DNA of 24,033 bases from Verrucomicrobia bacterium UBA3869 (GTDB taxonomy: Bacteria; Verrucomicrobiota; Verrucomicrobiia; Opitutales; UBA9783): NCBI GenBank assembly GCA_002392285.1, contig DGGR01000017.1, forward strand, positions 1 to 24,033, read 5' to 3'. A model generated the notes under the pieces. The model searched no databases and was not told where the DNA came from. It saw only the letters and a program-made list of their open reading frames with translations. The position numbers were made by a program, and so were the translations under genes. Each line of letters begins with the position of its first letter. Within the stretch, counting starts at the first letter, position 1. Shown here one piece after another: positions 1 to 14,812 of this stretch.

Positions 1-715
1 TTAAAAACTCCGGATGCGGGCGAACAACAACGCGATAATCCGTGCTTTTCAAAGTATCGATGAGAGAATCAATTCCCTGTTCCATTAAATTTCCCGGACC
101 CCAGGTCGGCGCGACCAACACGGTTGTTTGATCCGGGAATTTCGGGGTGTAATGCTGAAATTTTTGATACACAACATCGATACGCGGATAACCCACGGGT
201 AGCAATTGTTTTGCAGGTAAGGCATACACCTGTTCCCGCTTTTTTATTTCTTCGGTATGATGAGGGCCTACGCAAAAAATGGCATCATAAGCATCAAAAG
301 CAGTTTCGTTGTATTGCAAATGGGTACTGGAAAAAGCGTGAAATAGATAGAGGTAGGTTTTTACCTTCTTGGATTTTCGAAACGCACGCACCTGCGTACT
401 GTTTAAATCGGGTGCAGTCCAAACAAAACACCTTGCATCGATGCGATCCATAACCGATTTCAAACAAAGGTCAAAATAGAAGGGATGTAAGCGTTCGTGA
501 TGATGCGTTAAAATCGGATCCTTTGGGTCATTGGTAAGGTAACTGAACTGGATGGATGGATTTTTCAGCAATTCGATAATAAAGGGCTCAAACGTTTGAT
601 AATAGATAGCGCTTTCGGAAAAAAACACTAATTGGCGACAAGGCGCGAAGTCTTTGCTAAAAAAACGATTGTATGCCTTGAATTCCCCTAATAGACTTAG
701 GATGTGTTGGAACAT
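1..715 (-). CDS. CDP-glycerol glycerophosphotransferase (TagB/TagF, Glyphos_transf)-family phosphotransferase; N-terminal 238 aa only, 3' end runs off the window
   Basis: Not in the supplied ORF track because there is no stop in the window. My own minus-strand translation from the ATG (complement of 715-713) stays open to base 1: MFQHILSLLGEFKAYNRFFSKDFAPCRQLVFFSESAIYYQTFEPFIIELLKN...YLYLFHAFSSTHLQYNETAFDAYDAIFCVGPHHTEEIKKREQVYALPAKQLLPVGYPRIDVVYQKFQHYTPKFPDQTTVLVAPTWGPGNLMEQGIDSLIDTLKSTDYRVVVRPHPEFL. The motifs GYPRxD, xxAPTW and a later HP are those I associate with TagF-like enzymes. The track ORFs 69..275(-) and 124..453(+) are out-of-frame shadows of this gene. Confidence 0.6.
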   Translation of the reverse strand, partial: MFQHILSLLGEFKAYNRFFSKDFAPCRQLVFFSESAIYYQTFEPFIIELLKNPSIQFSYLTNDPKDPILTHHHERLHPFYFDLCLKSVMDRIDARCFVWTAPDLNSTQVRAFRKSKKVKTYLYLFHAFSSTHLQYNETAFDAYDAIFCVGPHHTEEIKKREQVYALPAKQLLPVGYPRIDVVYQKFQHYTPKFPDQTTVLVAPTWGPGNLMEQGIDSLIDTLKSTDYRVVVRPHPEFL

Positions 716-3691
716 AATTATCAATGTATTATCTTGGGGGCTGGGCGGTCAAAACAATTAACCCAAAATCCCGCGCTGGTTAATATTGATCAAGACCAAT
801 GCACTTTGGATTGGTTGCTTAAAACCGTAGGGGCTAATGCTTGCAGCAGTATTTTTGTTGGTGGATATACCTTTGATACGATTGCCCAAAAATATCCGCA
901 ATTGCGTTTTGTTTGCAATGCACAATGGGCGAAAACCGGCTGTGAAACCTCGTTGTACCTATCTCAATTCGACCCAAAACTCCCTGCATTTATATGCTAT
1001 GGGGATATCTTGGTGCGCTCTGCATTGGTTGAATTGGTTCTGAAAGTGGCCGAAGCTGATGATAGCGATGGGGTTATTACCTTGGATTCCCATACGCAGT
1101 TGTTGGATACCAAAGAAAACTATGAATGCTTCGAAGGAACGTTAAAGGGCCAATACGGAAATTACCCCTTCGTGGGATGTGTGTATTTAAAACCTAAGGC
1201 ATTGGGGCTCTTACACCAACAGCAGTGTTTTCGCAACAATGGGAAAAATTACCGCCTATCTGACTTGATACACCTCTGCCAGGATAAATTACGATTGACT
1301 TGCGTAGATGCGCATGGATTGTGGGCTGAAATCTTACGCCCCATTGATATTACCAAGTTTATCCTAACAACGAAATCCGAAACGCTCCAAACCTTGCAGC
1401 GTCATATTACCCAAGCACGGATGTTGGATCAGGTCCATTTTTCGGTTAAGGAGTGGCGTGAACAATCTTCTAGTTTGGTTTCGTGTATCCTGCAAACATT
1501 CCCACATCAACCATTGGTAGTGCGCAGTAGTTCACTGCAGGAAGATAACTTTACACAGGCCAATGCGGGTAAATTCGAAAGTATTTTAAACGTTCAGCCA
1601 GAAGCAACCGTTATTAAAGCAGCCGTTGATACCGTCATTCAATCCTATGGAACGCCGAAAGAAGCGGACCAGGTGTTGGTTCAACCCATGTTGCCGAATG
1701 TTAAATTGAGCGGAGTTGTTTTTACCCGTAGCCTGCAGCACAGTGCCCCTTACTATATTGTGAATTATGATGGGACGAGCACCGAATCCGTTACGAGTGG
1801 CCAAAGTACGCAGGATGTTACCTTTTATCATTGGAAACACGCCCCGATTCCGTCCCATGCACCTGATTTTTATCCACGCTTACAAGCAGCGATTCAAGAG
1901 ATTGAGCACCTAACCCAATGGGATGCGTTGGATATTGAGTTCGCGGTTACTCAGCAAAACGAACTGTATTTGTTCCAAGTACGACCTTTGGTCGCGCGTC
2001 ACTTGCAGGAAATTAGCGACGAACAGCTTCAGCAATGTTTGGATGAAGCCGCAGAGCGCTTCGATTCGCTACAAATCCCCCAGGAAGCAATTGCGGGGCA
2101 ACATACGATTTTCGGTGTTATGCCTGATTGGAACCCGGCTGAAATGATTGGAACGAAACCGAATGCGTTAGCGGCTTCCCTCTATCGTACGCTGATCACA
2201 GACTCCATTTGGGCACAACAAAGGGCGGAATTTGGTTATAAAGACGTACGGCCTTATCCCTTGATGGTGAGCTTTTCAGGTCACCCATATATCGATGTGC
2301 GTGCCAGTATCCATTCGTTTATCCCAAAGTCCGTTCCTACTGAAACAACCGGCAAGTTGGTTACATTTTTCGTTAACCGTTTAAAACAGCATCCTGAATG
2401 GCATGATAAGTTGGAGTTTAAGGTGATGCCGACGTGCGACACCTGCGATTTTGATGAACGTTGGCACGCGTTGTTAACCAAAGATGCAGGGTTATCGGTA
2501 ATGGAATATCAACAGTATCGCTCGGCTTTGCACGAAATAACCCACGCTGCTTTGATTCAATGCGAAGCCTACTACAAAGCTATTAAGGCGATCGAAGAGC
2601 GTTTTGCACGTATTAAAGCGTCTCAGCAAGCGGATAGCGATAAAATTTACACTTTGATTGAAACAGCCAAAATAGGTACGCTCAACTTTTCCCATTTGGC
2701 CCGATGCGGCTTTATTGCACGTTCCTTGCTGCAGGCTTATGAAGCACAGGGGATTATTACCAAGGAAGAAAGTCAGTCGCTTGTTGACGCTATTCAGACG
2801 ATTGCGGGACAATTTTTTAAGGATACTCAAGCTGCGATTGCGGGTAAAGGTTCTAAGCAAGCCTGTTTGGATATCTATGGGCATTTGCGTCCAGGAACCT
2901 ATGACATTACGTCGCCAACCTACCGTTCTGATCCTGAAAAATACTTGTTTGTAAAAAGCACAGTGGAATTGAGTCAGCGTTCCAAGGCAGCCTTTAGTTA
3001 TAACAAGCTAGAAGCCGCTTTACAAAAGGACTGGGGATTTTCACTTACGGCATTTCGCCAATTTTTACAATGCGCGATTGCTGGTCGAGAATATTCAAAA
3101 TTTATCTTTACGCGCTACATTTCTTTAATCCTGGATTTGATACAAGCAATTGGCGCTCGCTATGGATTTTCCCCACAAGAGCTGGAGCATGTACCCATTA
3201 CGGTTTTTCAGCAACTGCGCGGGGGTATTGATGCATCAAAAACCTTGAAAGCTTTGTTACAAACAACCATCGAACAAGGTGCGTTGGATTACTGTTTCGC
3301 TCAGGCTATAGAATTGCCGCCGCTGATTACCAACAAGAGCGATTTTTATGCCTTCTTTGTGCCTAAAACATTGCCGAATTTTATTGGAAATCAAAAGGCC
3401 GAAGCACCTTTGGTTTACCTCAAAAATTCTGATCAAATGGATGGTGCCGCTTTGCGCGATAAGATTGTTTTGATTGAAAAGGCAGATCCTGGGTTTGACT
3501 GGATTCTAAATTACGCTATTGCTGGGTTGATCACCGCTTATGGAGGCCCCAATTCCCATATGGCCATTCGTTCGGCCGAATGTCACTTGCCGGCAGCCAT
3601 TGGAATTGGAGAAGCGCTGTTTGACTCGCTCAAAACAGCTCAATTGGTTCACTTAGATTGCGCCAATCACACGTTAAAACGCATCCGATAA
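704..3691 (+). CDS. Three-module fusion of an N-terminal nucleotidyltransferase-like domain, a PPDK_N/PEP-synthase-type ATP-grasp domain, and a C-terminal PEP-utilizer phosphohistidine swivel domain; candidate Cj1418-like amide/small-molecule kinase (L-glutamine kinase type)
   Basis: 995-aa ORF with a GTG start at 704 (TTG 707 is an alternative; AGGA at 699-702). aa 8-220: IILGAGRSKQL...GGY...YGDIL, an NTase/GT-A-like domain. aa ~225-450: VVRSSSLQEDNFTQANAGKFESILNV...VLVQPMLPNVKLSGVVFTRS...LDIEFAV...LYLFQVRPL, classic PPDK_N ATP-grasp motifs. aa ~905-995: ITAYGGPNSHMAIRSAECHLPAAIGIG, a PEP-utilizer mobile-domain signature with the putative phospho-His at codon 3557-3559. The order ATP-grasp, central domain, C-terminal His domain is the architecture of rifampin phosphotransferase and Cj1418, not of bona fide PEP synthase. 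Confidence 0.85.
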   Translation: MLEHNYQCIILGAGRSKQLTQNPALVNIDQDQCTLDWLLKTVGANACSSIFVGGYTFDTIAQKYPQLRFVCNAQWAKTGCETSLYLSQFDPKLPAFICYGDILVRSALVELVLKVAEADDSDGVITLDSHTQLLDTKENYECFEGTLKGQYGNYPFVGCVYLKPKALGLLHQQQCFRNNGKNYRLSDLIHLCQDKLRLTCVDAHGLWAEILRPIDITKFILTTKSETLQTLQRHITQARMLDQVHFSVKEWREQSSSLVSCILQTFPHQPLVVRSSSLQEDNFTQANAGKFESILNVQPEATVIKAAVDTVIQSYGTPKEADQVLVQPMLPNVKLSGVVFTRSLQHSAPYYIVNYDGTSTESVTSGQSTQDVTFYHWKHAPIPSHAPDFYPRLQAAIQEIEHLTQWDALDIEFAVTQQNELYLFQVRPLVARHLQEISDEQLQQCLDEAAERFDSLQIPQEAIAGQHTIFGVMPDWNPAEMIGTKPNALAASLYRTLITDSIWAQQRAEFGYKDVRPYPLMVSFSGHPYIDVRASIHSFIPKSVPTETTGKLVTFFVNRLKQHPEWHDKLEFKVMPTCDTCDFDERWHALLTKDAGLSVMEYQQYRSALHEITHAALIQCEAYYKAIKAIEERFARIKASQQADSDKIYTLIETAKIGTLNFSHLARCGFIARSLLQAYEAQGIITKEESQSLVDAIQTIAGQFFKDTQAAIAGKGSKQACLDIYGHLRPGTYDITSPTYRSDPEKYLFVKSTVELSQRSKAAFSYNKLEAALQKDWGFSLTAFRQFLQCAIAGREYSKFIFTRYISLILDLIQAIGARYGFSPQELEHVPITVFQQLRGGIDASKTLKALLQTTIEQGALDYCFAQAIELPPLITNKSDFYAFFVPKTLPNFIGNQKAEAPLVYLKNSDQMDGAALRDKIVLIEKADPGFDWILNYAIAGLITAYGGPNSHMAIRSAECHLPAAIGIGEALFDSLKTAQLVHLDCANHTLKRIR

Positions 3692-3696
3692 CAACT

Positions 3697-4353
3697 ATGG
3701 ACCCAGCAACAAACCCATTGGAATCGCACAACCTTAAATGGCTAAAAATCGGGCTATCTCAGCGCACCATTCAGGCAGCGGAAGCCCAGGGGGTAGTTAG
3801 TCCATCCGATGAACTGCACGATGAATTGAGTCAGCAATGGACCACCTTATTAAACGCTCGCCATTTGTTGACCCTACCCATTCCCAACCTGGTTCCATTA
3901 CAACCGTGGCTATCGGCGGTGAATTTAGACGGAATTTTGTTGAGTGGAGGCAATGATCACGCTACCCGCAGTACCTGCGAAACCGCTTGTATCGAATACA
4001 GCATACAGCATCGCTTGCCCCTCATGGGCATTTGCCATGGGTTCCAATGCATCGCACGTTATTTCGGAGCAACCTTAATACCTATTCAAGGGCATGTTGG
4101 ATGTACGCATCCGGTTCAAATTCATGAAAATCCCTATATCCCAACAGGTACCCAAATCGTTAATTCCTTCCATACGCTAACGATAGCAACGCTTCCAGAT
4201 GGGTTTAAGCCACTCGCAACCGATTTGGAAGGCCATTTGGAGGCAATTTACCACGAAACGCTCCCGATAGTAGCTTTCATATGGCATCCGGAACGTCCTC
4301 CGTTCGATGCCAAGTGGAACGCATGGGCTTATTCTTTTTATGCAAAAAACTAA
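3697..4353 (+). CDS. Class-I glutamine amidotransferase-like hydrolase (peptidase C26 / gamma-glutamyl hydrolase type); candidate Cj1417-like gamma-glutamyl-CDP-amidate hydrolase
   Basis: The track ORF is 3658..4353. I prefer ATG 3697, which lies 5 nt after the upstream stop (product MDPATNPLESH...). Nucleophile elbow LMGICHGFQCIARYFG (Cys codon 4033-4035). C-terminal FIWHPE supplies the His/Glu pair (His 4285-4287, Glu 4291-4293). ILLSGGND precedes the elbow, as is typical of this fold. Confidence 0.8.
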   Translation: MDPATNPLESHNLKWLKIGLSQRTIQAAEAQGVVSPSDELHDELSQQWTTLLNARHLLTLPIPNLVPLQPWLSAVNLDGILLSGGNDHATRSTCETACIEYSIQHRLPLMGICHGFQCIARYFGATLIPIQGHVGCTHPVQIHENPYIPTGTQIVNSFHTLTIATLPDGFKPLATDLEGHLEAIYHETLPIVAFIWHPERPPFDAKWNAWAYSFYAKN

Positions 4354-5077
4354 GGTTTTTATTTTATGCGCCGGCGAAGGTAAACGCTTACGTCCGTATA
4401 CCGAGCATCAACCCAAATGCATGGTCCCTTACCAAGGGAAGCCGCTTGTAGCGTATCAATTGGATTTGTTCGCTCAACAGGGGCTTCGGGATATTGTTCT
4501 CATTGGTGGGTATTGCCATACGCTGTTGCCTAAACAAGCTACGGTGGTGGTTAATCCCGATTATGTTAAAACCAATATGGTCTATAGCCTGTTTTGCGCG
4601 CAGGAACAAATGGATGAAGCTTGCGATTGGCTCATTACCTATGGCGATATCATTTACCATGCGTCGGTATTGCAAGCGATGCTCAAAGCCAACGAATCCA
4701 TTGCGGTTGCAACCGATGTTGATTGGCAGTGTTATTGGAAACGGCGTATGGAAGATCCGTTGAAGGATGCGGAAACCTTTCGCTGGGATACACAAACCCA
4801 TCGCATTATTGAAATCGGCAAAAAACCGAAAACTTTGGCGGATATCCAAGGCCAGTACATTGGTTTTATTAAGGTAGCGGCTCAATATACCAAGGTTTTT
4901 AAGCAAGCCTATCGGCAGTTTTTAAACGTTCATCCAAGTCCAAAAACCGCTTATATGACAGATTTTTTGCAGTTTTTAATCGACCAAAAAATTCCGCTGT
5001 ATGGCGTACCCATTCACAATCATTGGGCTGAATTTGATACGGTTCAGGACCTATTGTTAACATTAGATTGGCTATAA
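4340..5077 (+). CDS. Nucleotidyltransferase (LicC/NTP_transf_3-like cytidylyltransferase type); candidate Cj1416-like CTP:phosphoglutamine cytidylyltransferase
   Basis: The track ORF is 4307..5077. I prefer ATG 4340 (MQKTKVFILCAGEGKRLRPYTEHQPKCMVPYQGKPL), which overlaps the upstream stop by 14 nt and suggests translational coupling. It has a canonical GxGxRLxPxTxxxPK signature, YGDII, and later KDAETF and GQYIGF motifs. Confidence 0.8.
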   Translation: MQKTKVFILCAGEGKRLRPYTEHQPKCMVPYQGKPLVAYQLDLFAQQGLRDIVLIGGYCHTLLPKQATVVVNPDYVKTNMVYSLFCAQEQMDEACDWLITYGDIIYHASVLQAMLKANESIAVATDVDWQCYWKRRMEDPLKDAETFRWDTQTHRIIEIGKKPKTLADIQGQYIGFIKVAAQYTKVFKQAYRQFLNVHPSPKTAYMTDFLQFLIDQKIPLYGVPIHNHWAEFDTVQDLLLTLDWL

Positions 5078-5132: not shown

Positions 5133-7208
5133 ATGAGGAATATGACTAAGAAAGCAACGACTGTCCATGCTAAAACAGCGAAAAAAACCTTAAAGCTGTC
5201 CGATAAAAAATCCTGCATCCGTAGTGCATCCACTAAACGGGTAAGAGCTGCCAAATTAACTCCTGTTATCGATTACCATGCAGCTTGGGAATTAGCCAAT
5301 CAGGCTGATTTGCTCGCCTTCCAACAAGGGCACTGCAATCGCATTTACAACGTACTTGGTTCTCATCCTGCAACTGAAGAAGAGAAATCGGGCTATCACT
5401 TTGCGGTATGGGCTCCGAATGCAAAATCTGTATCTGTGGTAGGGGATTTTAATCAATGGGATTCGAAGAAAAATCCTATGTACTTACACAATCTTTTTGG
5501 GGTATGGGAAGCATTTGTTCCTGGCGCTACAGTAGGACAAAAATACAAATATGCCGTTATCGGATGCAATCAACAATTGCAGTTGAAAGCTGATCCGTAC
5601 GGCAATTGGGGTGAACATACAGATTCGCACGCGTCCATCCTATGTCCTACCTTAAACCGATACGAGTGGAACGACAATACGTGGCTGCAAAAGCGCGCTA
5701 GACATAATTGCCAAGAACAGCCCTTGTCGATCTATGAGCTTCACATCGATTCTTGGCGTCACAATGCAAAAGACAATCCGCTCACTTACCGAGAATTAGC
5801 ACAGCAACTAGCGCAGTATTTAAAAGCTACAGATTTTACGCATGTTGAATTGATGCCGATTATGGAGCATCCCTTTACGGATTCCTGGGGCTATCAAATA
5901 ACTGGGTTTTATGCGCCCACCTCGCGTTATGGGACACCGGAAGACTTTCAGTATTTAATCGATACGCTGCATCAAGCTAATATTGGCGTCATTCTCGATT
6001 GGGTACCCGGTCACTTCCCAACCGACGATTTTGGTTTGGCGCGCTTTGATGGTACCGCTTTGTATGAACATGCCGATCCGCGCCAAGGTATCCATCCAGA
6101 TTGGGGAACCTATATCTTTAATTATGGACGCAACGAGGTCCGCAATTTCCTCATCAGCAACGCATTGTTTTGGATTGAGCAATTCCATATCGATGGTTTA
6201 CGTTTGGATGCAGTTGCTTCCATGCTTTATTTGGATTATTCTCGCAAACCTGATGCATGGATCCCCAACCAATACGGAGGTAAAGAGAATATAGATGCCA
6301 TTAATTTCTTGCGTGAACTCAATAACATCATCCATTCATCCTATCCTGGCGTTCTATCGATTGCTGAGGAATCAAGTTCCTTTGGTCGCGTTTCTCAACC
6401 AACTCAATCTTATGGATTGGGATTTGATTTTAAATGGAACATGGGTTGGATGCATGATGTATCCAATTACTGTAAATTGGATCCGATTTTCCGCAAATAT
6501 CATCACAACAAAATGACCTTTGCGATGCTTTATCAACGCTCAGAGCATTTCATCAATGTCTTTTCGCACGATGAAGTGGTTTACGGCAAAGGTTCGATGG
6601 TACAGAAAATGGGTTCGCCTTATTTAAGCGATAAACTGAGTACCTTGCGCGCCCTCTATACTTTTATGTGGGGATGGCCAGGCAAAAAAACACTCTTTAT
6701 GGGCAACGAATTCGCTCAGCTCGATGAATGGGATTTCCACAAGGCTTTGTCTTGGGAATTGTTGGAGAAACCAGAACATCAAGGGATGTTGCGCTTAATC
6801 TTTGATTTAAATCACCTCTACCGCACGCTGCGTTTTTGGCACGAAGGCGATATGTACGAAGGAAGTTTTTCTTGGATCAACCCAGAGGATTGCGATAACA
6901 GCGTATTCTCATTTATACGCAAAAGCGCTTCCTCAACCCATACGCTCTTGTTTATCTCGAACTTTACGCCAATTGAGCATTCAAATTACGAATGCGGCGT
7001 TCCTTTCGCCGGTACTTGGCATGAATTGCTTAACTCCGATAGTACATCCTATGGCGGACTTAATCGTGGGAATTTAGGCTCTGTAACTGCGATCAAGCAA
7101 GAACGCGACCTGCAACCCTGCACACTTAGCTTATACCTACCCCCGCTAAGTACGATTGTCTTAGAGTTTAAACGTACTCATATGAAGGCATGCGATAAAA
7201 GTGCTTAG
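5133..7208 (+). CDS. glgB: 1,4-alpha-glucan branching enzyme GlgB (GH13 with CBM48), carrying a Lys-rich N-terminal extension
   Basis: HFAVWAPNAKSVSVVGDFNQWD (CBM48). GH13 catalytic motifs are VILDWVPGHF, GLRLDAVASMLY, LSIAEESS and FSHDEV. The track ORF starts at 5085. ATG 5133 has GAGG upstream, and ATG 5142 is an alternative. Confidence 0.9.
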   Translation: MRNMTKKATTVHAKTAKKTLKLSDKKSCIRSASTKRVRAAKLTPVIDYHAAWELANQADLLAFQQGHCNRIYNVLGSHPATEEEKSGYHFAVWAPNAKSVSVVGDFNQWDSKKNPMYLHNLFGVWEAFVPGATVGQKYKYAVIGCNQQLQLKADPYGNWGEHTDSHASILCPTLNRYEWNDNTWLQKRARHNCQEQPLSIYELHIDSWRHNAKDNPLTYRELAQQLAQYLKATDFTHVELMPIMEHPFTDSWGYQITGFYAPTSRYGTPEDFQYLIDTLHQANIGVILDWVPGHFPTDDFGLARFDGTALYEHADPRQGIHPDWGTYIFNYGRNEVRNFLISNALFWIEQFHIDGLRLDAVASMLYLDYSRKPDAWIPNQYGGKENIDAINFLRELNNIIHSSYPGVLSIAEESSSFGRVSQPTQSYGLGFDFKWNMGWMHDVSNYCKLDPIFRKYHHNKMTFAMLYQRSEHFINVFSHDEVVYGKGSMVQKMGSPYLSDKLSTLRALYTFMWGWPGKKTLFMGNEFAQLDEWDFHKALSWELLEKPEHQGMLRLIFDLNHLYRTLRFWHEGDMYEGSFSWINPEDCDNSVFSFIRKSASSTHTLLFISNFTPIEHSNYECGVPFAGTWHELLNSDSTSYGGLNRGNLGSVTAIKQERDLQPCTLSLYLPPLSTIVLEFKRTHMKACDKSA

Positions 7209-8053
7209 AACCTTGTCCCTATACCAAAATAGACCTGGTCGGATTCCAAATCACCCAATTTGGGGATGCTATGGCCGTAGACTTTATTATCGAAAAGTTG
7301 GCTGAAGGCAATATGCCGATAGCCCCCTTCGATACGGCATCCAAATCCTTCGTAGCAAAGAAAAGCTGTAAGATTATATAACAGAGCTCCAGTATAAACA
7401 TACTTACGACGATAGCGAGATGAGCCTTCCCAAAACGGAATGCCTACAACGCCTGTAGTATCAACATTAAGTGCTTCCCATGTGGTAAATTTAGTAAAAA
7501 CGCAAGCGCCCCCCATTCCTCCGCCAATGCCTATTGACAGGGAATCCAAAAGATACTGCACCCAATACAGATTAACTTGACAGCCCATAATGCGTTGGTT
7601 TTTGAGGTACATTGCAGTAAACAAATTATTCCACCTACCACTGTAAAAACGGTAACGAGAGACTCGAAAATCAGGCTGTAATATCTGGAAATGGCCAACG
7701 GTTATCATCTTCCGGGATACGTCAAGATTCGCATAAGCTCCTAAGCATTCAAGTTCTAAGTTTAGAACACTGCTAGTAAAGATATCGAACTCCCCACCTA
7801 AAGCTACTGATAACGTACGATAGTTCTTATAGGGAAAGGATCCCTGAGTTCCCTTCCCGTCATCGGCTGGACGGGTGATATGGGTTCGTGTAACTCCAGC
7901 GTAGGGCTCGGATGTATCCTTAAGTCCAGTAATATCCCTTCCCCTAAGCTGTCCGAATCCGCTACGGAATATTAAATAGACCCCCTCACACGGTTGTGTA
8001 TTAAGACTTAAAATAAGCAAGCATATCCATAGGAATCGGTAACGAACATTCAT
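7205..8053 (-). CDS. Hypothetical outer-membrane beta-barrel protein (OMP_b-brl-like), no recognisable orthology
   Basis: The track ORF is 7205..8062. The fourth-codon ATG (8053) sits 8 nt downstream of AAGGA, so I prefer it. The N-terminus MNVRYRFLWICLLILSLNTQPCEG is signal-like. The protein has alternating hydrophobic/polar strands, a glycine-rich SIGIGGGMGG segment, and the C-terminal beta-signal ...QVYFGIGTRF ending in Phe. Confidence 0.55.
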   Translation of the reverse strand: MNVRYRFLWICLLILSLNTQPCEGVYLIFRSGFGQLRGRDITGLKDTSEPYAGVTRTHITRPADDGKGTQGSFPYKNYRTLSVALGGEFDIFTSSVLNLELECLGAYANLDVSRKMITVGHFQILQPDFRVSRYRFYSGRWNNLFTAMYLKNQRIMGCQVNLYWVQYLLDSLSIGIGGGMGGACVFTKFTTWEALNVDTTGVVGIPFWEGSSRYRRKYVYTGALLYNLTAFLCYEGFGCRIEGGYRHIAFSQLFDNKVYGHSIPKLGDLESDQVYFGIGTRF

Positions 8054-8171
8054 AGCGTACATCCTTGTAAATTTTAGTTTACCTATTTTTGGCTTGTGTG
8101 CTAGAACAATTTTAAAAAAATTATTCTTAATAGGGATAAAAACTGCTGCATCTCTATTTTTTAAGCAATTC

Positions 8172-11145: not shown

Positions 11146-12015
11146 TTAGTGCTGTGGATGGGCCTTATGGTAGACCTTTTGCAAAAACTGGATGTTTACG
11201 TGGGTATAAATTTGGGTGGTTGATAGGCTGGCGTGCCCTAAGAGGGCTTGTACAACGCGCAAATCAGCTCCGTTTTGCAATAAATGGGTTGCGTAGCTAT
11301 GGCGGCAACTATGAGGGGTCATGGTAAGGGGCAAATGAGCGGCCAACAGGTGTTTTTTGATCAGCAACTGGACGCTGCGGGTGGTTAATGGCTCACCGGA
11401 TCGATTCGGGATGAGTACCTCGGTGTTTATGCGCGCATGTAAAGCTTGAAGGGCTTCTAAAGCGGGTTTACCAAAGGGTATCATGCGTTCTTTGCGTCCT
11501 TTCCCCAAGACCCGTAGTAAGCGTTGATCCCATAAAACGTGTTCCATACGTAAGGTGACCAATTCCCCGACGCGAACGCCGCTGCCATAGAGTAATTCCA
11601 GCAAGGCTTTATCCCGCCGCCAAAAAAACTCGGTTAGCTTACCTGCCTCGAACAATTGATCGGGTGTAGCTAATAGCGTGTTCATCTGTTCAAGGGTAAA
11701 AAACTGAGGCAATTTGGGCTCGAATTTGGGGCTCATTTCCTTTAAATTTTGCGGCATTTTATGGTGGTAATGCTGCTCTAAAAAATGGAAAAACGTGCGC
11801 AGTGCGGATAGGTCATGATTGAGGGTACGTTTATTAACCTTTCGTTGTTGTAAAAACAACCCGAGTGATTTGGTATCAAGTAGATCGCATGCCTGATCTT
11901 GGGTGAATGTTGCCCAGGCGTTAACAGAGCGCATGTAATCGCGTTGGGTATAGGGAGAATAAGCACGCTGCTTTAAATAATTCTGAAACGCTTCTAGGTA
12001 AGCAGAATCAGTCAT
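11146..12015 (-). CDS. Tyrosine site-specific recombinase, XerC/XerD family
   Basis: C-terminal catalytic region GVRVGELVTL...HSCRHSYATHLLQNGADLRVVQALLGHASLSTTQIYTHV (R...HxxR...H...Y). The track ORF starts at 12042. ATG 12015 (MTDSAYLEAF) overlaps the der stop in an ATGACTGA arrangement, so I prefer it. Confidence 0.85.
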   Translation of the reverse strand: MTDSAYLEAFQNYLKQRAYSPYTQRDYMRSVNAWATFTQDQACDLLDTKSLGLFLQQRKVNKRTLNHDLSALRTFFHFLEQHYHHKMPQNLKEMSPKFEPKLPQFFTLEQMNTLLATPDQLFEAGKLTEFFWRRDKALLELLYGSGVRVGELVTLRMEHVLWDQRLLRVLGKGRKERMIPFGKPALEALQALHARINTEVLIPNRSGEPLTTRSVQLLIKKHLLAAHLPLTMTPHSCRHSYATHLLQNGADLRVVQALLGHASLSTTQIYTHVNIQFLQKVYHKAHPQH

Positions 12016-13387
12016 ACTGACGCTCCGTATTGCGGGACGCATTGGGTTGTTTTTCTACCCACTCCCAAGCGATCGGACAGCCGCTTAATAAAAATTGTTC
12101 GCGCAGTGTGTTTTCCAAAAAGCGTTCGTAGGTAGGGGGCATCCAAGCGCATCGATTGCAAAAAACTTTAAACGTTAACGGTAATTGTTGCTTTTGTACG
12201 GCGTAATAAAGCTTAAAGCGTTTACCCTGTACCAAGGGAGGAGGTTGTATTTGCTGGGCTTTTTGTAAGCAACGGTTTAAAGCGCCGGTGGTAATCGGGG
12301 TATGGAGACGTTCATATAAGGCTTTTAGCTGCAACAGCAAGGGTTCTAACCCTTCGCGTGTTTGGGCGGAAAAAAAGCAAATGGGGGCATCCATAAACGG
12401 ACAGGCTCGTTTGAGCGCTTCTGTAAATTCCTGCTGAAACGCTTCGATCGATTGGCTACCGTTTCCCTTGAGGTGCTGTTGAGCAATATCCCATTTGTTA
12501 ACCCCTAATAAGCAGCCTTTACCCAAGGAGGCAACTTCATTGATGAGTGCTTTGTCGATCAGGGTTGGCCCAGTAGTCGCATCCAACAGAACCACCGCTA
12601 TATCGACTGATTTTAATGCGTTTTGCGTGCGAAGAGAAGCATAAAATTCCAGCGAATCACTTTGTTTTTTACGAATACCAGCTGTGTCTACCAATACAAA
12701 CTGGGCAGTTTCACCGCTTTTAAAGCCCCATTGGAAAGGGCATTCGATAGCATCTCGTGTAGTGCCTGCTAGGTCACTTACCAACACCCGCTCTTCCTTC
12801 AATAAGGCATTAGTTAAGGATGATTTGCCAACATTAGGTCGTCCTACCAAGGCAAAACGAACTGGAGCTGTCGGTACGGTGGGTATAGGGTCGTTTGTTC
12901 CTTCGGGCAATACCTGCAGAATGGCTTGCTTAAGTTCATCGATGCCGCGGTTATGCTCTGCTGAAATTGCGATAACTGGTTCAAAGCCCAAACGATAAAA
13001 TTCCCCCTGATTGGCTTCGTCGGCTTCCGTGTCCAATTTGTTAACTGCGAGAATGATGGGTTGTTTGATTTTACGCAATTGGCGAGCCAGAGTCAGTTCG
13101 TCTGAGTCTAATCCGTGCCGCCCATCCAAAACCCAAACGATTACGGCAGCGCTGGTTAATGCGCGCTGAACCTGTGCTTCAATGGCTGGGGTAAAGCCAT
13201 CCGATGGATTGAACAATCCTCCGCTGTCTACTAGGGTAAAGCATCCATCAATGGTTGCGGTTAGTAAATCGCGCGTTACTCCCGGTTGGTTATAAACAAC
13301 AGCGGTTCGTGAACGACTGATGCGATTAAATAATGTACTTTTCCCAACATTGGTACGCCCCAATAATAACACAGAAGGTAAAGTCAT
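12008..13387 (-). CDS. der: Ribosome-associated GTPase Der/EngA (tandem GTPase domains plus KH-like C-terminus)
   Basis: 459 aa with two P-loops, GRTNVGKSTLFN and GRPNVGKSSLTN. Each is followed by a DTxG/DSGG motif and an NKxD motif (NKLD, NKWD). GGGAGG Shine-Dalgarno upstream. Confidence 0.93.
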   Translation of the reverse strand: MTLPSVLLLGRTNVGKSTLFNRISRSRTAVVYNQPGVTRDLLTATIDGCFTLVDSGGLFNPSDGFTPAIEAQVQRALTSAAVIVWVLDGRHGLDSDELTLARQLRKIKQPIILAVNKLDTEADEANQGEFYRLGFEPVIAISAEHNRGIDELKQAILQVLPEGTNDPIPTVPTAPVRFALVGRPNVGKSSLTNALLKEERVLVSDLAGTTRDAIECPFQWGFKSGETAQFVLVDTAGIRKKQSDSLEFYASLRTQNALKSVDIAVVLLDATTGPTLIDKALINEVASLGKGCLLGVNKWDIAQQHLKGNGSQSIEAFQQEFTEALKRACPFMDAPICFFSAQTREGLEPLLLQLKALYERLHTPITTGALNRCLQKAQQIQPPPLVQGKRFKLYYAVQKQQLPLTFKVFCNRCAWMPPTYERFLENTLREQFLLSGCPIAWEWVEKQPNASRNTERQYD

Positions 13388-13849: not shown

Positions 13850-14812
13850 ATGAAAATTCATCATTTATTAGCTATGCCTCTTACGCTCGCAACCAGCAGC
13901 GTATTTGCAGGTAATTATTGTGCGTGTTGTGAATCCGGCTGCAATTATCCCGATGCTTATCGTTTAGTGCAGCATTTAACCCAGAACGGTGGAGCTACCA
14001 TCCCCACTGCTTATGAAAAGATTGGTCGGGTTGATTTGCGGGATAACGCAGAAGATTCTTATCTTCATTTGTTTGTTCAAGAAACCTTTGGTGGTTTTGG
14101 ATTAAGCAACCGTTCACTGTCGTTAGAAGATAAGCGAGTAGCGCATTTTTCAGATATCGATAATATCCTCGCAAGCTATTTCGATCATTCTATGTCTGAA
14201 GCCAGAAAGAACCGCATCGCTTCTTTCTTCAAACATATTGCAACCGAAGAATTCATGCGTGAAATTTTGCTAGACGAGACCGTTGATGCTATTCGCGAAT
14301 ATACCGATCGTAATGACAACCGTGGTATTACTACCATTAACTTTACAACGGATAATCCCTACGCTTTGCATGAGATTTCCAACGATATCCAAATCCTTAA
14401 GGTTACGTTAACCTATGAGCAAAATGCTTATAAGACCCGTCGTTACCGTAACTTCTTGGCTTCATTCGAACTGACCTATGACATCATGGAAGACAAGATT
14501 GTAAACGTAAAGTTAATCGGTCCTATGCGGGTTAATTCGCAATTCGTCACGAATGAAGTGACTCAATTGTTCCCTTGCGAAGATCTGAATTGGAAAGTAG
14601 CTTCCATTTTTGATGATGAAGAGTATTTTGCCACATCTGAGAACGAGTGCTGCAAACAACAACCAAAGCCGATCGTTCACAAAGAAGAGGTCAATATTAC
14701 GATAAATCAGAATAACAACCCAGCTGTTGTACAACAAAGGGTTGCTCCAAAAAAAGCAACGAAGCGTCATCGCGGATTGTTTCAGGCTTTTCAGAACACA
14801 TTCGATAAATAA
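13850..14812 (+). CDS. Secreted hypothetical protein (320 aa), orphan
   Basis: Signal-peptide-like N-terminus MKIHHLLAMPLTLATSSVFA/GN, followed by the Cys cluster YCACCESGC. I recognise no family motif. Followed by a strong intrinsic terminator. Confidence 0.6.
   Translation: MKIHHLLAMPLTLATSSVFAGNYCACCESGCNYPDAYRLVQHLTQNGGATIPTAYEKIGRVDLRDNAEDSYLHLFVQETFGGFGLSNRSLSLEDKRVAHFSDIDNILASYFDHSMSEARKNRIASFFKHIATEEFMREILLDETVDAIREYTDRNDNRGITTINFTTDNPYALHEISNDIQILKVTLTYEQNAYKTRRYRNFLASFELTYDIMEDKIVNVKLIGPMRVNSQFVTNEVTQLFPCEDLNWKVASIFDDEEYFATSENECCKQQPKPIVHKEEVNITINQNNNPAVVQQRVAPKKATKRHRGLFQAFQNTFDK

What the first reader, a model, noticed from the sequence alone, without database searches (positions are those of the whole stretch)
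704..1380. Extra N-terminal NTase-like domain fused to the kinase is a degenerate paralogue of the stand-alone NTase two genes downstream
Seen in sequence: residues ~8-125 of the 995-aa protein align by eye with the product of 4340..5077. The first aligned pair is IILGAGRSKQL...GGYTFD...NAQWAKTGCETSLYL...FICYGDILVRSALVELVLK. The second is FILCAGEGKRLRPYTEHQPK...GGYCHT...NPDYVKTNMVYSLFC...LITYGDIIYHASVLQAMLK. The NTP-binding signature is intact in the stand-alone enzyme (GEGKRLRP...PK). It is altered in the fused domain (GAGRSKQL, with PA in place of PK). From memory, Cj1418 is ~230 aa shorter than this protein, which is consistent with this domain being an addition. Inference, with three possibilities: a fusion of pathway steps 1 and 2 with a divergent active site, a catalytically dead domain acting as a nucleotide- or product-binding regulatory or scaffolding module, or an NTase with a different substrate that gives the locus two distinct nucleotidylyl transfers.
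Basis: partly seen in the sequence, partly recalled or inferred. Interest (0 to 1): 0.65.

Follow-up and report, generated by a model that had tools for sequence, protein, structure and literature searches.

The report
Dead nucleotidyltransferase domain on glutamine kinase
The extra 215 residues at the front of this glutamine kinase are an old, conserved copy of the pathway's own cytidylyltransferase that has lost its catalytic residues, and this fusion marks a widespread, unstudied version of the bacterial phosphoramidate pathway.

Summary
Residues 1-~219 of the 995-aa protein (704..3691) fold as a nucleotidyltransferase (NTase): AF2 pLDDT 92.7, Foldseek hits to LicC, IPCT, PntC and RmlA. They are homologous over the whole domain to the stand-alone Cj1416-like NTase at 4340..5077 (hhalign 99.9%, E 2e-33). 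The domain lacks the GxGxRL...PK signature: five residues are deleted over xGxRL, the Lys is replaced, and the second metal-binding Asp is replaced.

This is not specific to this locus. The fusion occurs in at least 12 bacterial phyla. The N-domains form one clade, separate from the stand-alone NTases. They are under purifying selection (dN/dS 0.13). Every evaluable fused locus keeps an intact stand-alone NTase and the Cj1417-like amidohydrolase, so the domain does not replace step 2.

Fused kinases go with a TagF-like transferase and mostly lack the Cj1415-like 3'-kinase. Unfused, Campylobacter-type kinases show the opposite pattern.

My best reading (about 0.55) is a non-catalytic pseudo-NTase that still binds a ligand and either regulates the kinase or docks it to the NTase. 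This is inferred and untested. It is a new variant of a known kind and of moderate interest.

The parts
704..3691 (+). Fused protein, 995 aa: an N-terminal pseudo-NTase domain followed by a Cj1418-type L-glutamine kinase (ATP-grasp, rifampin-phosphotransferase-like core and swivelling phosphohistidine domain)
   Evidence: ORF. NF004508 matches aa 215-993 at 848 bits; PF01326 and PF00391 also hit. Full-length AF2 model has pLDDT 86.4 and pTM 0.76; its best PDB matches are rifampin phosphotransferase for the core and NTases for the N-terminus.
704..1360 (+). N-terminal NTase-fold domain (aa 1-219), the subject of the finding
   Evidence: AF2 pLDDT 92.7. Foldseek hits to 2ggo, 6pd1/2, 2xme, 1jyk and 4jd0. 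hhalign to stand-alone NTases E 2.3e-33. dN/dS 0.128 against L003.
728..781 (+). Remnant of the NTP-binding loop, IILGAGRSKQLTQNPALV (aa 9-26). LGAG is kept, the five residues 'xGxRL' are deleted, and the Lys of 'PK' is replaced by Ala
   Evidence: In 62 N-domains, 58 carry the deletion and at most 1 keeps the Lys. All 64 stand-alone NTases keep G, R, T, P and K.
998..1006 (+). Y99-G-D101, the retained first metal-binding or catalytic Asp (equivalent to D112 of T. maritima IMPCT)
   Evidence: Asp present in 62/62 N-domains and 64/64 NTases. The three critical residues R16, K26 and D112 are as cited in PMC12275187.
1139..1144 (+). Site of a ~17-residue deletion specific to the Opitutales/Puniceicoccales clade. 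It lies in the 'W..R..R..E.K....G' sub-domain that covers the second-substrate pocket in this NTase family
   Evidence: Alignment A1, columns ~150-170.
1322..1336 (+). W207-A-E-I-L211, corresponding to the 'WxEvD' motif. The second acidic metal ligand is Leu here (Asn in 37/62 N-domains, Asp in 12/62)
1346..3691 (+). Glutamine-kinase part (aa 215-995)
   Evidence: Invariant His952 in the PEP-utilizers domain.
3697..4353 (+). Class-I glutamine amidotransferase-like hydrolase, Cj1417-like (gamma-glutamyl-CDP-amidate hydrolase). The likely ATG is at 3697; the mechanical ORF begins at 3658
   Evidence: PF00117 and PF07722 hit. NF045546 is the best NCBIfam hit at 91.7 bits, below its cut-off of 250. 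Conserved directly after the kinase in 64/67 fused loci.
4340..5077 (+). Stand-alone, catalytically intact COG1213 NTase, Cj1416-like (CTP:phosphoglutamine cytidylyltransferase by synteny and family)
   Evidence: PF12804 E 3.6e-16; LicC 1jyk E 1e-14. The family profile hits LicC at 2.5e-26. All signature residues are present.
2..715 (-). Divergent TagF-like transferase gene (PF04464 Glyphos_transf), cut by the window edge. Its ATG at 715 overlaps the kinase start by 12 nt. It is the probable phosphoramidate transferase
   Evidence: A full-length copy is in L003 (385 aa). Present in 40/67 fused loci and 0/14 unfused loci.

Best explanation
The N-terminal ~215 residues are a pseudo-nucleotidyltransferase. 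An old duplicate of a COG1213 cytidylyltransferase, the family that contains the pathway's own Cj1416-like enzyme, was fused once to the front of the L-glutamine kinase. It then lost the residues that hold the triphosphate and its leaving group: the GxGxR loop, the PK lysine and the second metal Asp. It kept the core of the nucleoside and ligand cleft: LxAG, GGY, N72, YxD101, D128, E141 and WxE209.

It no longer performs nucleotidyl transfer. That step is done by the intact stand-alone NTase encoded two genes downstream.

The domain most likely acts as a ligand-binding module that couples step 1 to the rest of the pathway. It could sense a cytidine nucleotide made or released downstream (CDP-amidate, CDP-glutamine or CMP) and so gate the ATP-costly kinase. 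It could instead dock the kinase to its NTase paralogue so that phosphoglutamine is handed on directly.

What is shown: the fold, the homology, the loss of the signature, purifying selection, constant co-occurrence with the active NTase, and the association with TagF-type loci. What is inferred: loss of activity, ligand binding, and a regulatory or docking role.
For: Fold and homology.

Loss of catalytic residues across the family: 5-aa deletion in 58/62; Lys in at most 1/62; second Asp in 12/62. All are invariant in 64/64 stand-alone NTases. R16, K26 and D112 are the critical residues in this enzyme family (PMC12275187), and only the Asp is kept.

The domain is not decaying. dN/dS is 0.128 against 0.070 for the kinase. 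It shows 26-51% identity across phyla, with 12 invariant and 11 nearly invariant positions. Many of these are cleft residues shared with the active family.

It is not a substitute for step 2. A stand-alone NTase scoring above 300 bits is present in 61/67 fused loci. The other six end at a contig edge or are fragmented, and two of them (L043, L008) still show a partial NTase.

Single origin: N-domains and NTases are reciprocally monophyletic, and the N-domain is no closer to the NTase of its own genome than to other NTases.

Pathway link: TagF-like transferase in 40/67 fused against 0/14 unfused loci; APS-kinase-like gene in 4/67 against 13/14.

Precedent, from general knowledge: GMPPA, GalF, the ADP-glucose pyrophosphorylase large subunit and eIF2B gamma/epsilon are NTase-fold paralogues with regulatory roles. 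GMPPA/GMPPB and eIF2B structures appear among the fold and sequence hits.
Against: No binding or activity data exist. A conserved basic residue follows LGAG (R/K in 43/62), and R105 is conserved (84%). The retained Asp101, D128, E141 and E209 could support some non-canonical chemistry.

In the window's own clade the sub-domain over the second-substrate pocket is shortened by ~17 residues and R132 is Gln. This weakens the ligand-pocket argument for this particular protein.

The full-length AF2 model gives no readable evidence of a defined interface between the N-domain and the kinase. Only pLDDT and pTM were available, and N-domain pLDDT is somewhat lower in the full-length context.

The context associations are not corrected for shared ancestry. 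They rest on the 80 loci most similar to the query.
Confidence: 0.55

Rival explanations
1. The N-domain is still an enzyme. It would be a non-canonical nucleotidyltransferase, or a related phosphotransferase or hydrolase, acting on a different substrate. The locus would then carry out two distinct nucleotidyl (or related) transfers.
For: The cleft acidic residues D101, D128, E141 and E209 and the LGAG loop are conserved. Basic residues R/K15 and R105 are common. Purifying selection acts on the domain. The domain is tied to a pathway variant with different downstream enzymes, which could need a different activated intermediate.
Against: The Arg-containing loop is deleted and the Lys is lost in nearly all members. 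The second metal ligand is mostly Asn, and is Leu here. No position supplies a conserved replacement Lys or Arg in all members: position 15 is A, P, M or L in about 30%. The N-domain evolves faster than the active paralogue, with mean distance 0.70 against 0.57. The window clade has also lost part of the substrate lid.
Confidence: 0.15
2. The N-domain is a purely structural relic. It would be kept because it is needed for folding, solubility or oligomerisation of the kinase, and it would bind no ligand or partner.
For: Catalytic residues are lost. Constraint is relaxed relative to the kinase: dN/dS 0.128 against 0.070, and 30% against 43% identity to distant homologues. A further deletion in the window clade is tolerated.
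Against: The residues conserved in common with the active family lie in the cleft-forming motifs (N72, YxD, D128, E141, WxE) rather than only in the hydrophobic core. Unfused kinases of 767-810 aa exist and are presumably functional without it.
Confidence: 0.2
3. This is a true bifunctional fusion of step 1 and step 2. The N-domain would be the working phosphoglutamine cytidylyltransferase, and the downstream NTase would do something else.
For: Kinase-NTase fusions are common in nucleotide-activated precursor pathways (general knowledge). The N-domain belongs to the same COG1213 group as Cj1416.
Against: The intact stand-alone NTase sits in the kinase-amidohydrolase-NTase order in fused and unfused loci alike. 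It is the conserved, slowly evolving partner. The N-domain lacks the signature.
Confidence: 0.07

Closest known systems
Cj1418, L-glutamine kinase of Campylobacter jejuni (first step of O-methyl phosphoramidate biosynthesis; Taylor et al. 2017, known to me from memory and from reviews PMC6429109 and PMC9561416)
   Same: Residues 215-995 match the family model NF004508 end to end, above its cut-off. They have the same ATP-grasp, rifampin-phosphotransferase-like core and phosphohistidine domain layout. The gene is followed by Cj1417-like and Cj1416-like genes.
   Different: It carries about 215 extra N-terminal residues that form a pseudo-NTase domain. The locus has a TagF-like transferase and no Cj1415-like 3'-kinase or Cj1419/1420-like methyltransferase within the window.
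Cj1416, CTP:phosphoglutamine cytidylyltransferase, and other COG1213 cytidylyltransferases (LicC 1JYK, IMPCT 4JD0, IPCT 2XME, PntC 6PD1)
   Same: Same fold. Clear full-length homology. Shared motifs LxAG, GGY, N, YxD, D, E, G, WxE and D.
   Different: The N-domain lacks the GxGxRL loop, the PK lysine and the second metal Asp. It forms its own clade. It is always fused to the kinase and always accompanied by an intact family member.
Regulatory NTase-fold paralogues: GMPPA (with GMPPB), GalF (with GalU), ADP-glucose pyrophosphorylase large subunit, eIF2B gamma/epsilon
   Same: Each is an NTase-fold paralogue of a pathway enzyme that is kept alongside the active enzyme, with reduced or absent catalysis. 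The functional analogy is from general knowledge. GMPPA/GMPPB and eIF2B appear among the hits.
   Different: Those proteins are separate subunits that pair with their catalytic paralogue. Here the pseudo-domain is fused to the enzyme of the preceding step. No interaction or allosteric ligand has been shown.
TagF/TarF-type CDP-glycerol glycerophosphotransferases (PF04464), as context
   Same: The divergent neighbour gene is in this family. Such enzymes transfer a phospho-group from a CDP-linked donor and release CMP (general knowledge). This would fit cytidine diphosphoramidate being used directly as the donor.
   Different: The match is weak (23-39 bits). The donor and acceptor are unknown. 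No phosphoramidate transfer by this family has been reported, as far as I could find.

Membership tests
Catalytically competent COG1213 / LicC-like nucleotidyltransferase | GT-A-like (Rossmann-like) NTase fold | tested here: met
   AF2 pLDDT 92.7. Foldseek E ~1e-11 and TM ~0.7 to 2ggo, 6pd1, 2xme, 1jyk and 4jd0.
Catalytically competent COG1213 / LicC-like nucleotidyltransferase | N-terminal signature (L)xxGxGxR(L/M)x4-8PK, with the catalytic Arg and Lys (R16 and K26 of IMPCT) | tested here: not met
   The window has IILGAG-----RSKQLTQNPA. The 5-aa deletion is in 58/62 N-domains and the Lys in at most 1/62. All are invariant in 64/64 stand-alone enzymes. The critical residues are as cited in PMC12275187.
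Catalytically competent COG1213 / LicC-like nucleotidyltransferase | First metal-binding or catalytic Asp in the 'YGD' strand (D112 of IMPCT) | tested here: met
   D101 is conserved in 62/62 N-domains.
Catalytically competent COG1213 / LicC-like nucleotidyltransferase | Second acidic metal ligand in the C-terminal 'WxE(v)D' motif | tested here: not met
   Leu211 in the window; Asn in 37/62 and Asp in 12/62 N-domains; Asp in 64/64 NTases.
Catalytically competent COG1213 / LicC-like nucleotidyltransferase | Measured nucleotidyl-transfer activity | not testable with these tools
   Needs an enzyme assay.
Cj1416 orthologue (CTP:phosphoglutamine cytidylyltransferase) | Groups with the stand-alone NTases that follow the kinase and amidohydrolase genes | tested here: not met
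   The N-domains form a separate clade in an NJ tree of 62 N-domains and 64 NTases. The NT-profile score on the window N-domain is 25.8 bits, against 336 bits for the stand-alone gene.
Cj1418-type L-glutamine kinase (NF004508 / PRK05849), tested on residues 215-995 | Full-length match to the family model above its curated cut-off | tested here: met
   848.2 bits against a cut-off of 501, model positions 5-787 of 789.
Cj1418-type L-glutamine kinase (NF004508 / PRK05849), tested on residues 215-995 | ATP-grasp domain plus swivelling phosphohistidine domain with a conserved His | tested here: met
   PF01326 and PF00391 hit. H952 is invariant in 29 homologues. The fold matches rifampin phosphotransferase.
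Cj1418-type L-glutamine kinase (NF004508 / PRK05849), tested on residues 215-995 | Operon partners Cj1417-like hydrolase and Cj1416-like NTase | tested here: met
   Genes at 3697..4353 and 4340..5077. The order is conserved in the loci.
Cj1418-type L-glutamine kinase (NF004508 / PRK05849), tested on residues 215-995 | [quoted passage not shown] | not testable with these tools
   Needs an enzyme assay.
Regulatory pseudo-NTase paralogue (GMPPA / GalF / AGPase-L type) | NTase fold with impaired catalytic residues, kept under selection | tested here: met
Regulatory pseudo-NTase paralogue (GMPPA / GalF / AGPase-L type) | Co-occurs with an active paralogue of the same pathway | tested here: met
   61/67 fused loci. 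The remaining six are cut by contig ends or fragmented.
Regulatory pseudo-NTase paralogue (GMPPA / GalF / AGPase-L type) | Physical association with the active enzyme, or allosteric ligand binding that changes pathway flux | not testable with these tools
   No multimer prediction, coordinates or binding assay were available.

The most novel reading that the evidence does not exclude
The fused pseudo-NTase marks a second, phylogenetically dominant form of the phosphoramidate pathway. In this form cytidine diphosphoramidate is used directly by a TagF-like transferase, with no Cj1415-type 3'-phosphorylation. The dead NTase domain would be an intramolecular sensor of a cytidine nucleotide (CDP-amidate or CMP) that throttles glutamine kinase. 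That would be a pseudo-enzyme feedback device built from a copy of the pathway's own second enzyme. It would also imply that P-N-linked surface decorations are made in a dozen or more bacterial phyla, including gut Verrucomicrobiota, Pseudomonas, Legionella, Marinobacter, Actinomycetota, Planctomycetota and Cyanobacteria, rather than being a Campylobacter speciality.
Probability: 0.3. Interest if true: 0.75.

Novelty: new variant of a known kind. Interest (0 to 1): 0.55.

Why it matters
Glutamine kinase and the phosphoramidate pathway have been studied only in Campylobacter jejuni. A 2022 review still calls the kinase 'C. jejuni-specific' (PMC9561416).

In this survey the kinases closest to the window's protein mostly carry this dead NTase domain, across many phyla. 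They sit in a different gene set: a TagF-like transferase is present and the 3'-kinase is absent.

If the domain is a sensor or docking module, it is a clean bacterial case of a pathway enzyme being duplicated, inactivated and reused to control or organise the preceding step.

It also gives a simple sequence marker for finding organisms likely to make unmethylated or otherwise different phosphoramidate decorations on their surface glycans. The marker is LGAG-(R/K)-P, without GxGxRL...PK, at the N-terminus of a PRK05849 protein. Such decorations are relevant to phage receptors, immune recognition and vaccine antigens.

Tried and rejected
- A word-indexed search with the N-domain alone found a single hit, P0001. 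Its C-terminus runs into the kinase start, so it is a truncated fusion and not a stand-alone domain.
- I looked for stand-alone N-domains in the 1.84-billion-protein representative library. All short top hits I inspected continue into the kinase motif 'LGTKAQTL' or stop at fragment ends. Only three canonical NTases (P0261, P0266, P0267) appear among the best 149, so there is no evidence for a free-standing pseudo-domain.
- I suspected that PF27448, seen in some homologues, was a curated family for the N-domain. It is Rph_4th, inside the kinase core.
- I considered that the N-domain might replace the NTase in some genomes. This is rejected: the six fused loci without a full NTase hit are all cut by contig ends or fragmented.
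- I considered recent, repeated duplications of the local NTase. This is rejected because the two groups are reciprocally monophyletic, and own-genome distances are no smaller than distances to other NTases.
- I considered that the true start lies downstream. This is rejected because of conservation and purifying selection over residues 2-214.
- Four author manuscripts from the Raushel laboratory (PMC5629633, PMC5938751, PMC5938747, PMC6643271) are not held. I could not check whether they mention the fusion or the length of Cj1418.
- The full-length AF2 run returns no coordinates or PAE, so contacts between the N-domain and the kinase could not be read.

Full report
**What is in the window**

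The ORF 704..3691 (+) encodes 995 aa from a GTG that lies one codon after an in-frame stop. NCBIfam NF004508/PRK05849 is the family I take (from memory) to include Campylobacter Cj1418. It matches residues 215-993 at 848 bits against a cut-off of 501, over model positions 5-787 of 789. Pfam finds PPDK_N and the PEP-utilizers phosphohistidine domain.

Three neighbouring genes belong with it:
- 3697..4353 is a class-I amidotransferase-like protein. Its best NCBIfam match is gamma-glutamyl-CDP-amidate hydrolase (Cj1417 type), below the cut-off.
- 4340..5077 is a 245-aa NTase (PF12804 E 4e-16). Its best solved relative is LicC.
- A partial TagF-like gene (PF04464) lies upstream on the minus strand. 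Its ATG at 715 overlaps the kinase start by 12 nt.

The rest of the window is housekeeping: glgB, bioBDA, xerC/D-like, der, gatCAB, pheT, dnaK and groES/EL. A 93%-identical locus comes from an Opitutales genome assembled from horse faeces, so the window is from a gut Verrucomicrobiota bacterium.

**Check of the observation**

Residues 1-214 lie outside the kinase family model.
- They hit PF12804 just under the gathering score (26.3 against 27 bits).
- BLASTP to the stand-alone NTase gives 24% identity and E 9e-6.
- I aligned 29 diverse N-domains (A1) and 23 stand-alone NTases from kinase loci (A3). hhalign gives probability 99.9%, E 2.3e-33, over 228 columns.
- AF2 on A1 gives pLDDT 92.7 and pTM 0.90.
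- Foldseek against the PDB returns only nucleotidyltransferases at the top (ST0452, PntC, GlmU, IPCT, LicC, IMPCT, RmlA), with E ~1e-11 and TM ~0.7.

The domain is therefore real, it is an NTase fold, and the homology runs through the whole domain.

**Is it degenerate?**

In 64 stand-alone NTases next to kinase genes, the G, R, T, P and K of AAGxGxRLRPxTxxxPK, the Asp of YGD and the Asp of WxEvD are invariant. In 62 N-domains:
- 58 have a 5-residue deletion. The profile alignment places it over 'xGxRL'.
- The Lys survives in at most one (L079).
- The second Asp is Asn in 37, Asp in 12, and Leu in the window clade.
- The YGD Asp is kept in all 62.

For COG1213 cytidylyltransferases the critical residues are R16, K26 and D112 of the T. 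maritima enzyme (PMC12275187). The N-domain keeps only the last.

Other stand-alone invariants are also replaced: N80, D144, K163, Q173 and T208. The two families share LxAG, GGY, N72, L84, Y99xD101, D128, E141, G158, W207xE209 and D215. The N-domain family also has its own conserved positions: D36, W37, Y64, P65, W75, R105, D122, D202, G205 and F219.

The Opitutales/Puniceicoccales clade, including the window, has a further ~17-residue deletion in the 'W..R..R..E.K..G' sub-domain.

**It is not decaying**

Between the window and L003, dS is 0.54 over the N-domain and dN/dS is 0.128. The kinase part has dN/dS 0.070. Identity to distant homologues is 26-35% in the N-domain and 41-45% in the kinase.

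**Distribution**

- A search with the whole protein finds 3338 relatives at E <= 1e-10. Nearly all of the best 120 are 990-1060 aa with 99% coverage, from Pseudomonas, Halomonas, Marinobacter, Natronospira, Opitutales and Puniceicoccales. Automatic names include 'choline kinase/phosphohistidine swiveling domain-containing protein' and 'NTP transferase domain-containing protein'.
- A scan of one genome per species returned 595 confirmed stretches, of which the best 80 loci were kept. Fused genes occur in Verrucomicrobiota, alpha-, beta- and gamma-Pseudomonadota (including Legionella and Pelagibacteraceae), Helicobacteraceae, Actinomycetota, Chloroflexota, Planctomycetota, Bacteroidota, Cyanobacteria, Chlamydiota, Bdellovibrionota, Spirochaetota and Acidobacteriota.
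- Unfused kinases of 767-810 aa occur in Lachnospiraceae, Oscillospiraceae, Rhodospirillaceae, Bacteriovorax and Obscuribacterales.
- The N-domain profile finds 288 clusters at E <= 1e-30 among 1.84 billion representative proteins. Of the best 149, 85 are at least 950 aa. The shorter ones I inspected are fragments of fusions, apart from three canonical NTases.
- Pfam has no dedicated model. PF27448, seen in some homologues, is Rph_4th, inside the kinase.

**Gene context**

I called ORFs in 83 loci, clustered them, built profiles and searched six-frame translations. After removing one duplicate and one locus that could not be classified, 67 were fused and 14 unfused.

| Neighbouring gene | Fused (of 67) | Unfused (of 14) | Fisher p |
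|---|---|---|---|
| Stand-alone NTase | 61 | 13 | 1 |
| Amidohydrolase | 64 | 13 | 0.54 |
| TagF-like (PF04464) | 40 | 0 | 3e-5 |
| APS-kinase-like (Cj1415 type, PF01583) | 4 | 13 | 8e-11 |
| PF08241 methyltransferase (presumed Cj1419/1420 counterpart) | 0 | 12 | 1e-12 |

The six fused loci without a full NTase hit end at a contig edge or are fragmented. Two of them (L043, L008) still show a partial NTase.

These tests ignore shared ancestry, so they describe two operon types rather than independent events. Unfused loci contain no N-domain-like gene.

**Origin**

An NJ tree separates N-domains and stand-alone NTases into two clades. N-domains are no closer to the NTase of their own genome than to other NTases, and they evolve faster.

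In a kinase-domain tree the unfused kinases group with five fused proteins: L057, L058, L065, L069 and L079. At least four of these N-domains (L057, L058, L069, L079) lack the 5-residue deletion, and L079 still has PK. Together with the extra deletion in the window clade, this suggests stepwise decay after one old fusion. The trees are rough, being NJ with midpoint rooting and no outgroup.

Three canonical NTases (P0261-like) score higher with the N-domain profile (172 bits) than the Cj1416-like enzymes do (68-104 bits). The donor of the duplicate may therefore have been a neighbouring COG1213 clade.

**Mechanism**

*Shown:* the domain has the NTase fold, has lost most of the machinery for the triphosphate and leaving group, keeps much of the cleft, is selected, never occurs without the active NTase, and belongs to the TagF-type operon.

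*Inferred:* it does not catalyse nucleotidyl transfer, and it works as a binding module. Two versions fit equally well.
- It could be a sensor of a downstream cytidine compound that gates the kinase, which spends ATP to AMP. This would resemble GMPPA sensing GDP-mannose.
- It could be a docking surface that pairs with the NTase paralogue so that phosphoglutamine passes directly to step 2.

The absence of a 3'-kinase and the presence of a CDP-donor-type transferase suggest that cytidine diphosphoramidate is the final donor in these loci. This would make it, or the released CMP, a natural signal. That link is speculative. I put 0.55 on the non-catalytic binding-module reading as a whole.

The rivals are:
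- residual or new catalysis (0.15);
- a purely structural relic (0.20);
- a true step 1 + step 2 fusion (0.07).

**Comparison and novelty**

The kinase part is a member of the Cj1418 family. The N-domain is not a member of the active COG1213 enzymes, because the signature was tested and not met, and it is not a Cj1416 orthologue. It works most like the regulatory NTase paralogues (GMPPA, GalF, AGPase large subunit, eIF2B gamma/epsilon), but it is fused to the preceding enzyme.

I found no paper describing the fusion. The key Raushel manuscripts were not available, so prior mention cannot be excluded. I rate it a new variant of a known kind, with interest 0.55.

Noticed in passing
window 704-715 (also L002 10001-10012): The GTG start of the fused kinase (+) and the ATG of the divergent TagF-like gene (-) overlap head to head by 12 nt. 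The same 12-nt overlap is annotated in a 60%-identical Opitutales locus. Each promoter would therefore have to lie inside the other gene.
   Followed up: partly
L001, L012, L021, L030, L033, L035, L041, L050, L055 and other fused-type loci: Fused-type loci share further conserved companions of unknown role. These are a 300-460-aa protein with a weak Formyl_trans_N match, a ~153-aa and a ~80-aa protein with no Pfam hit, a ~700-aa sulfatase-superfamily protein, and a YidC-like (PF02096) protein.
   Followed up: partly
P0261, P0266, P0267 (representative library): These are canonical stand-alone COG1213 NTases with an intact GxGxRL...PK. They score higher with the N-domain profile (172 bits) than the Cj1416-like NTases do. 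One (P0267) is fused to a C-terminal methyltransferase. They may be nearer to the ancestor of the fused domain.
   Followed up: partly
L032, L051, L065, L069: Four fused loci (Rheinheimera, Lysobacterales, Saprospiraceae) do carry an APS-kinase-like gene. They have divergent N-domains and only a very weak TagF-like hit (none in L069). They look like a mixed or intermediate operon type.
   Followed up: no
L008 and L009: In two Verrucomicrobiota genome assemblies the kinase and the TagF-like gene are split into fragments. These are either pseudogenes or assembly errors.
   Followed up: no
window 7205-8062 (-) and 13850-14812 (+): Two ORFs of 285 and 320 aa have no Pfam match (the 285-aa ORF also has no NCBIfam match). 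They sit among housekeeping genes.
   Followed up: no
window 3658-3697 and 4307-4353: The mechanical ORF starts of the amidohydrolase (TTG 3658) and the NTase (ATG 4307) overlap the preceding genes by 34 and 47 nt. Homologues suggest the real starts are ATG 3697 and ATG 4340. The latter still overlaps the amidohydrolase end by 14 nt, which fits translational coupling.
   Followed up: partly
window 11146-12042 (-): A tyrosine recombinase (Phage_integrase plus SAM-like N-domain) lies between bioA and der. It is probably XerC/D rather than a mobile-element integrase.
   Followed up: no
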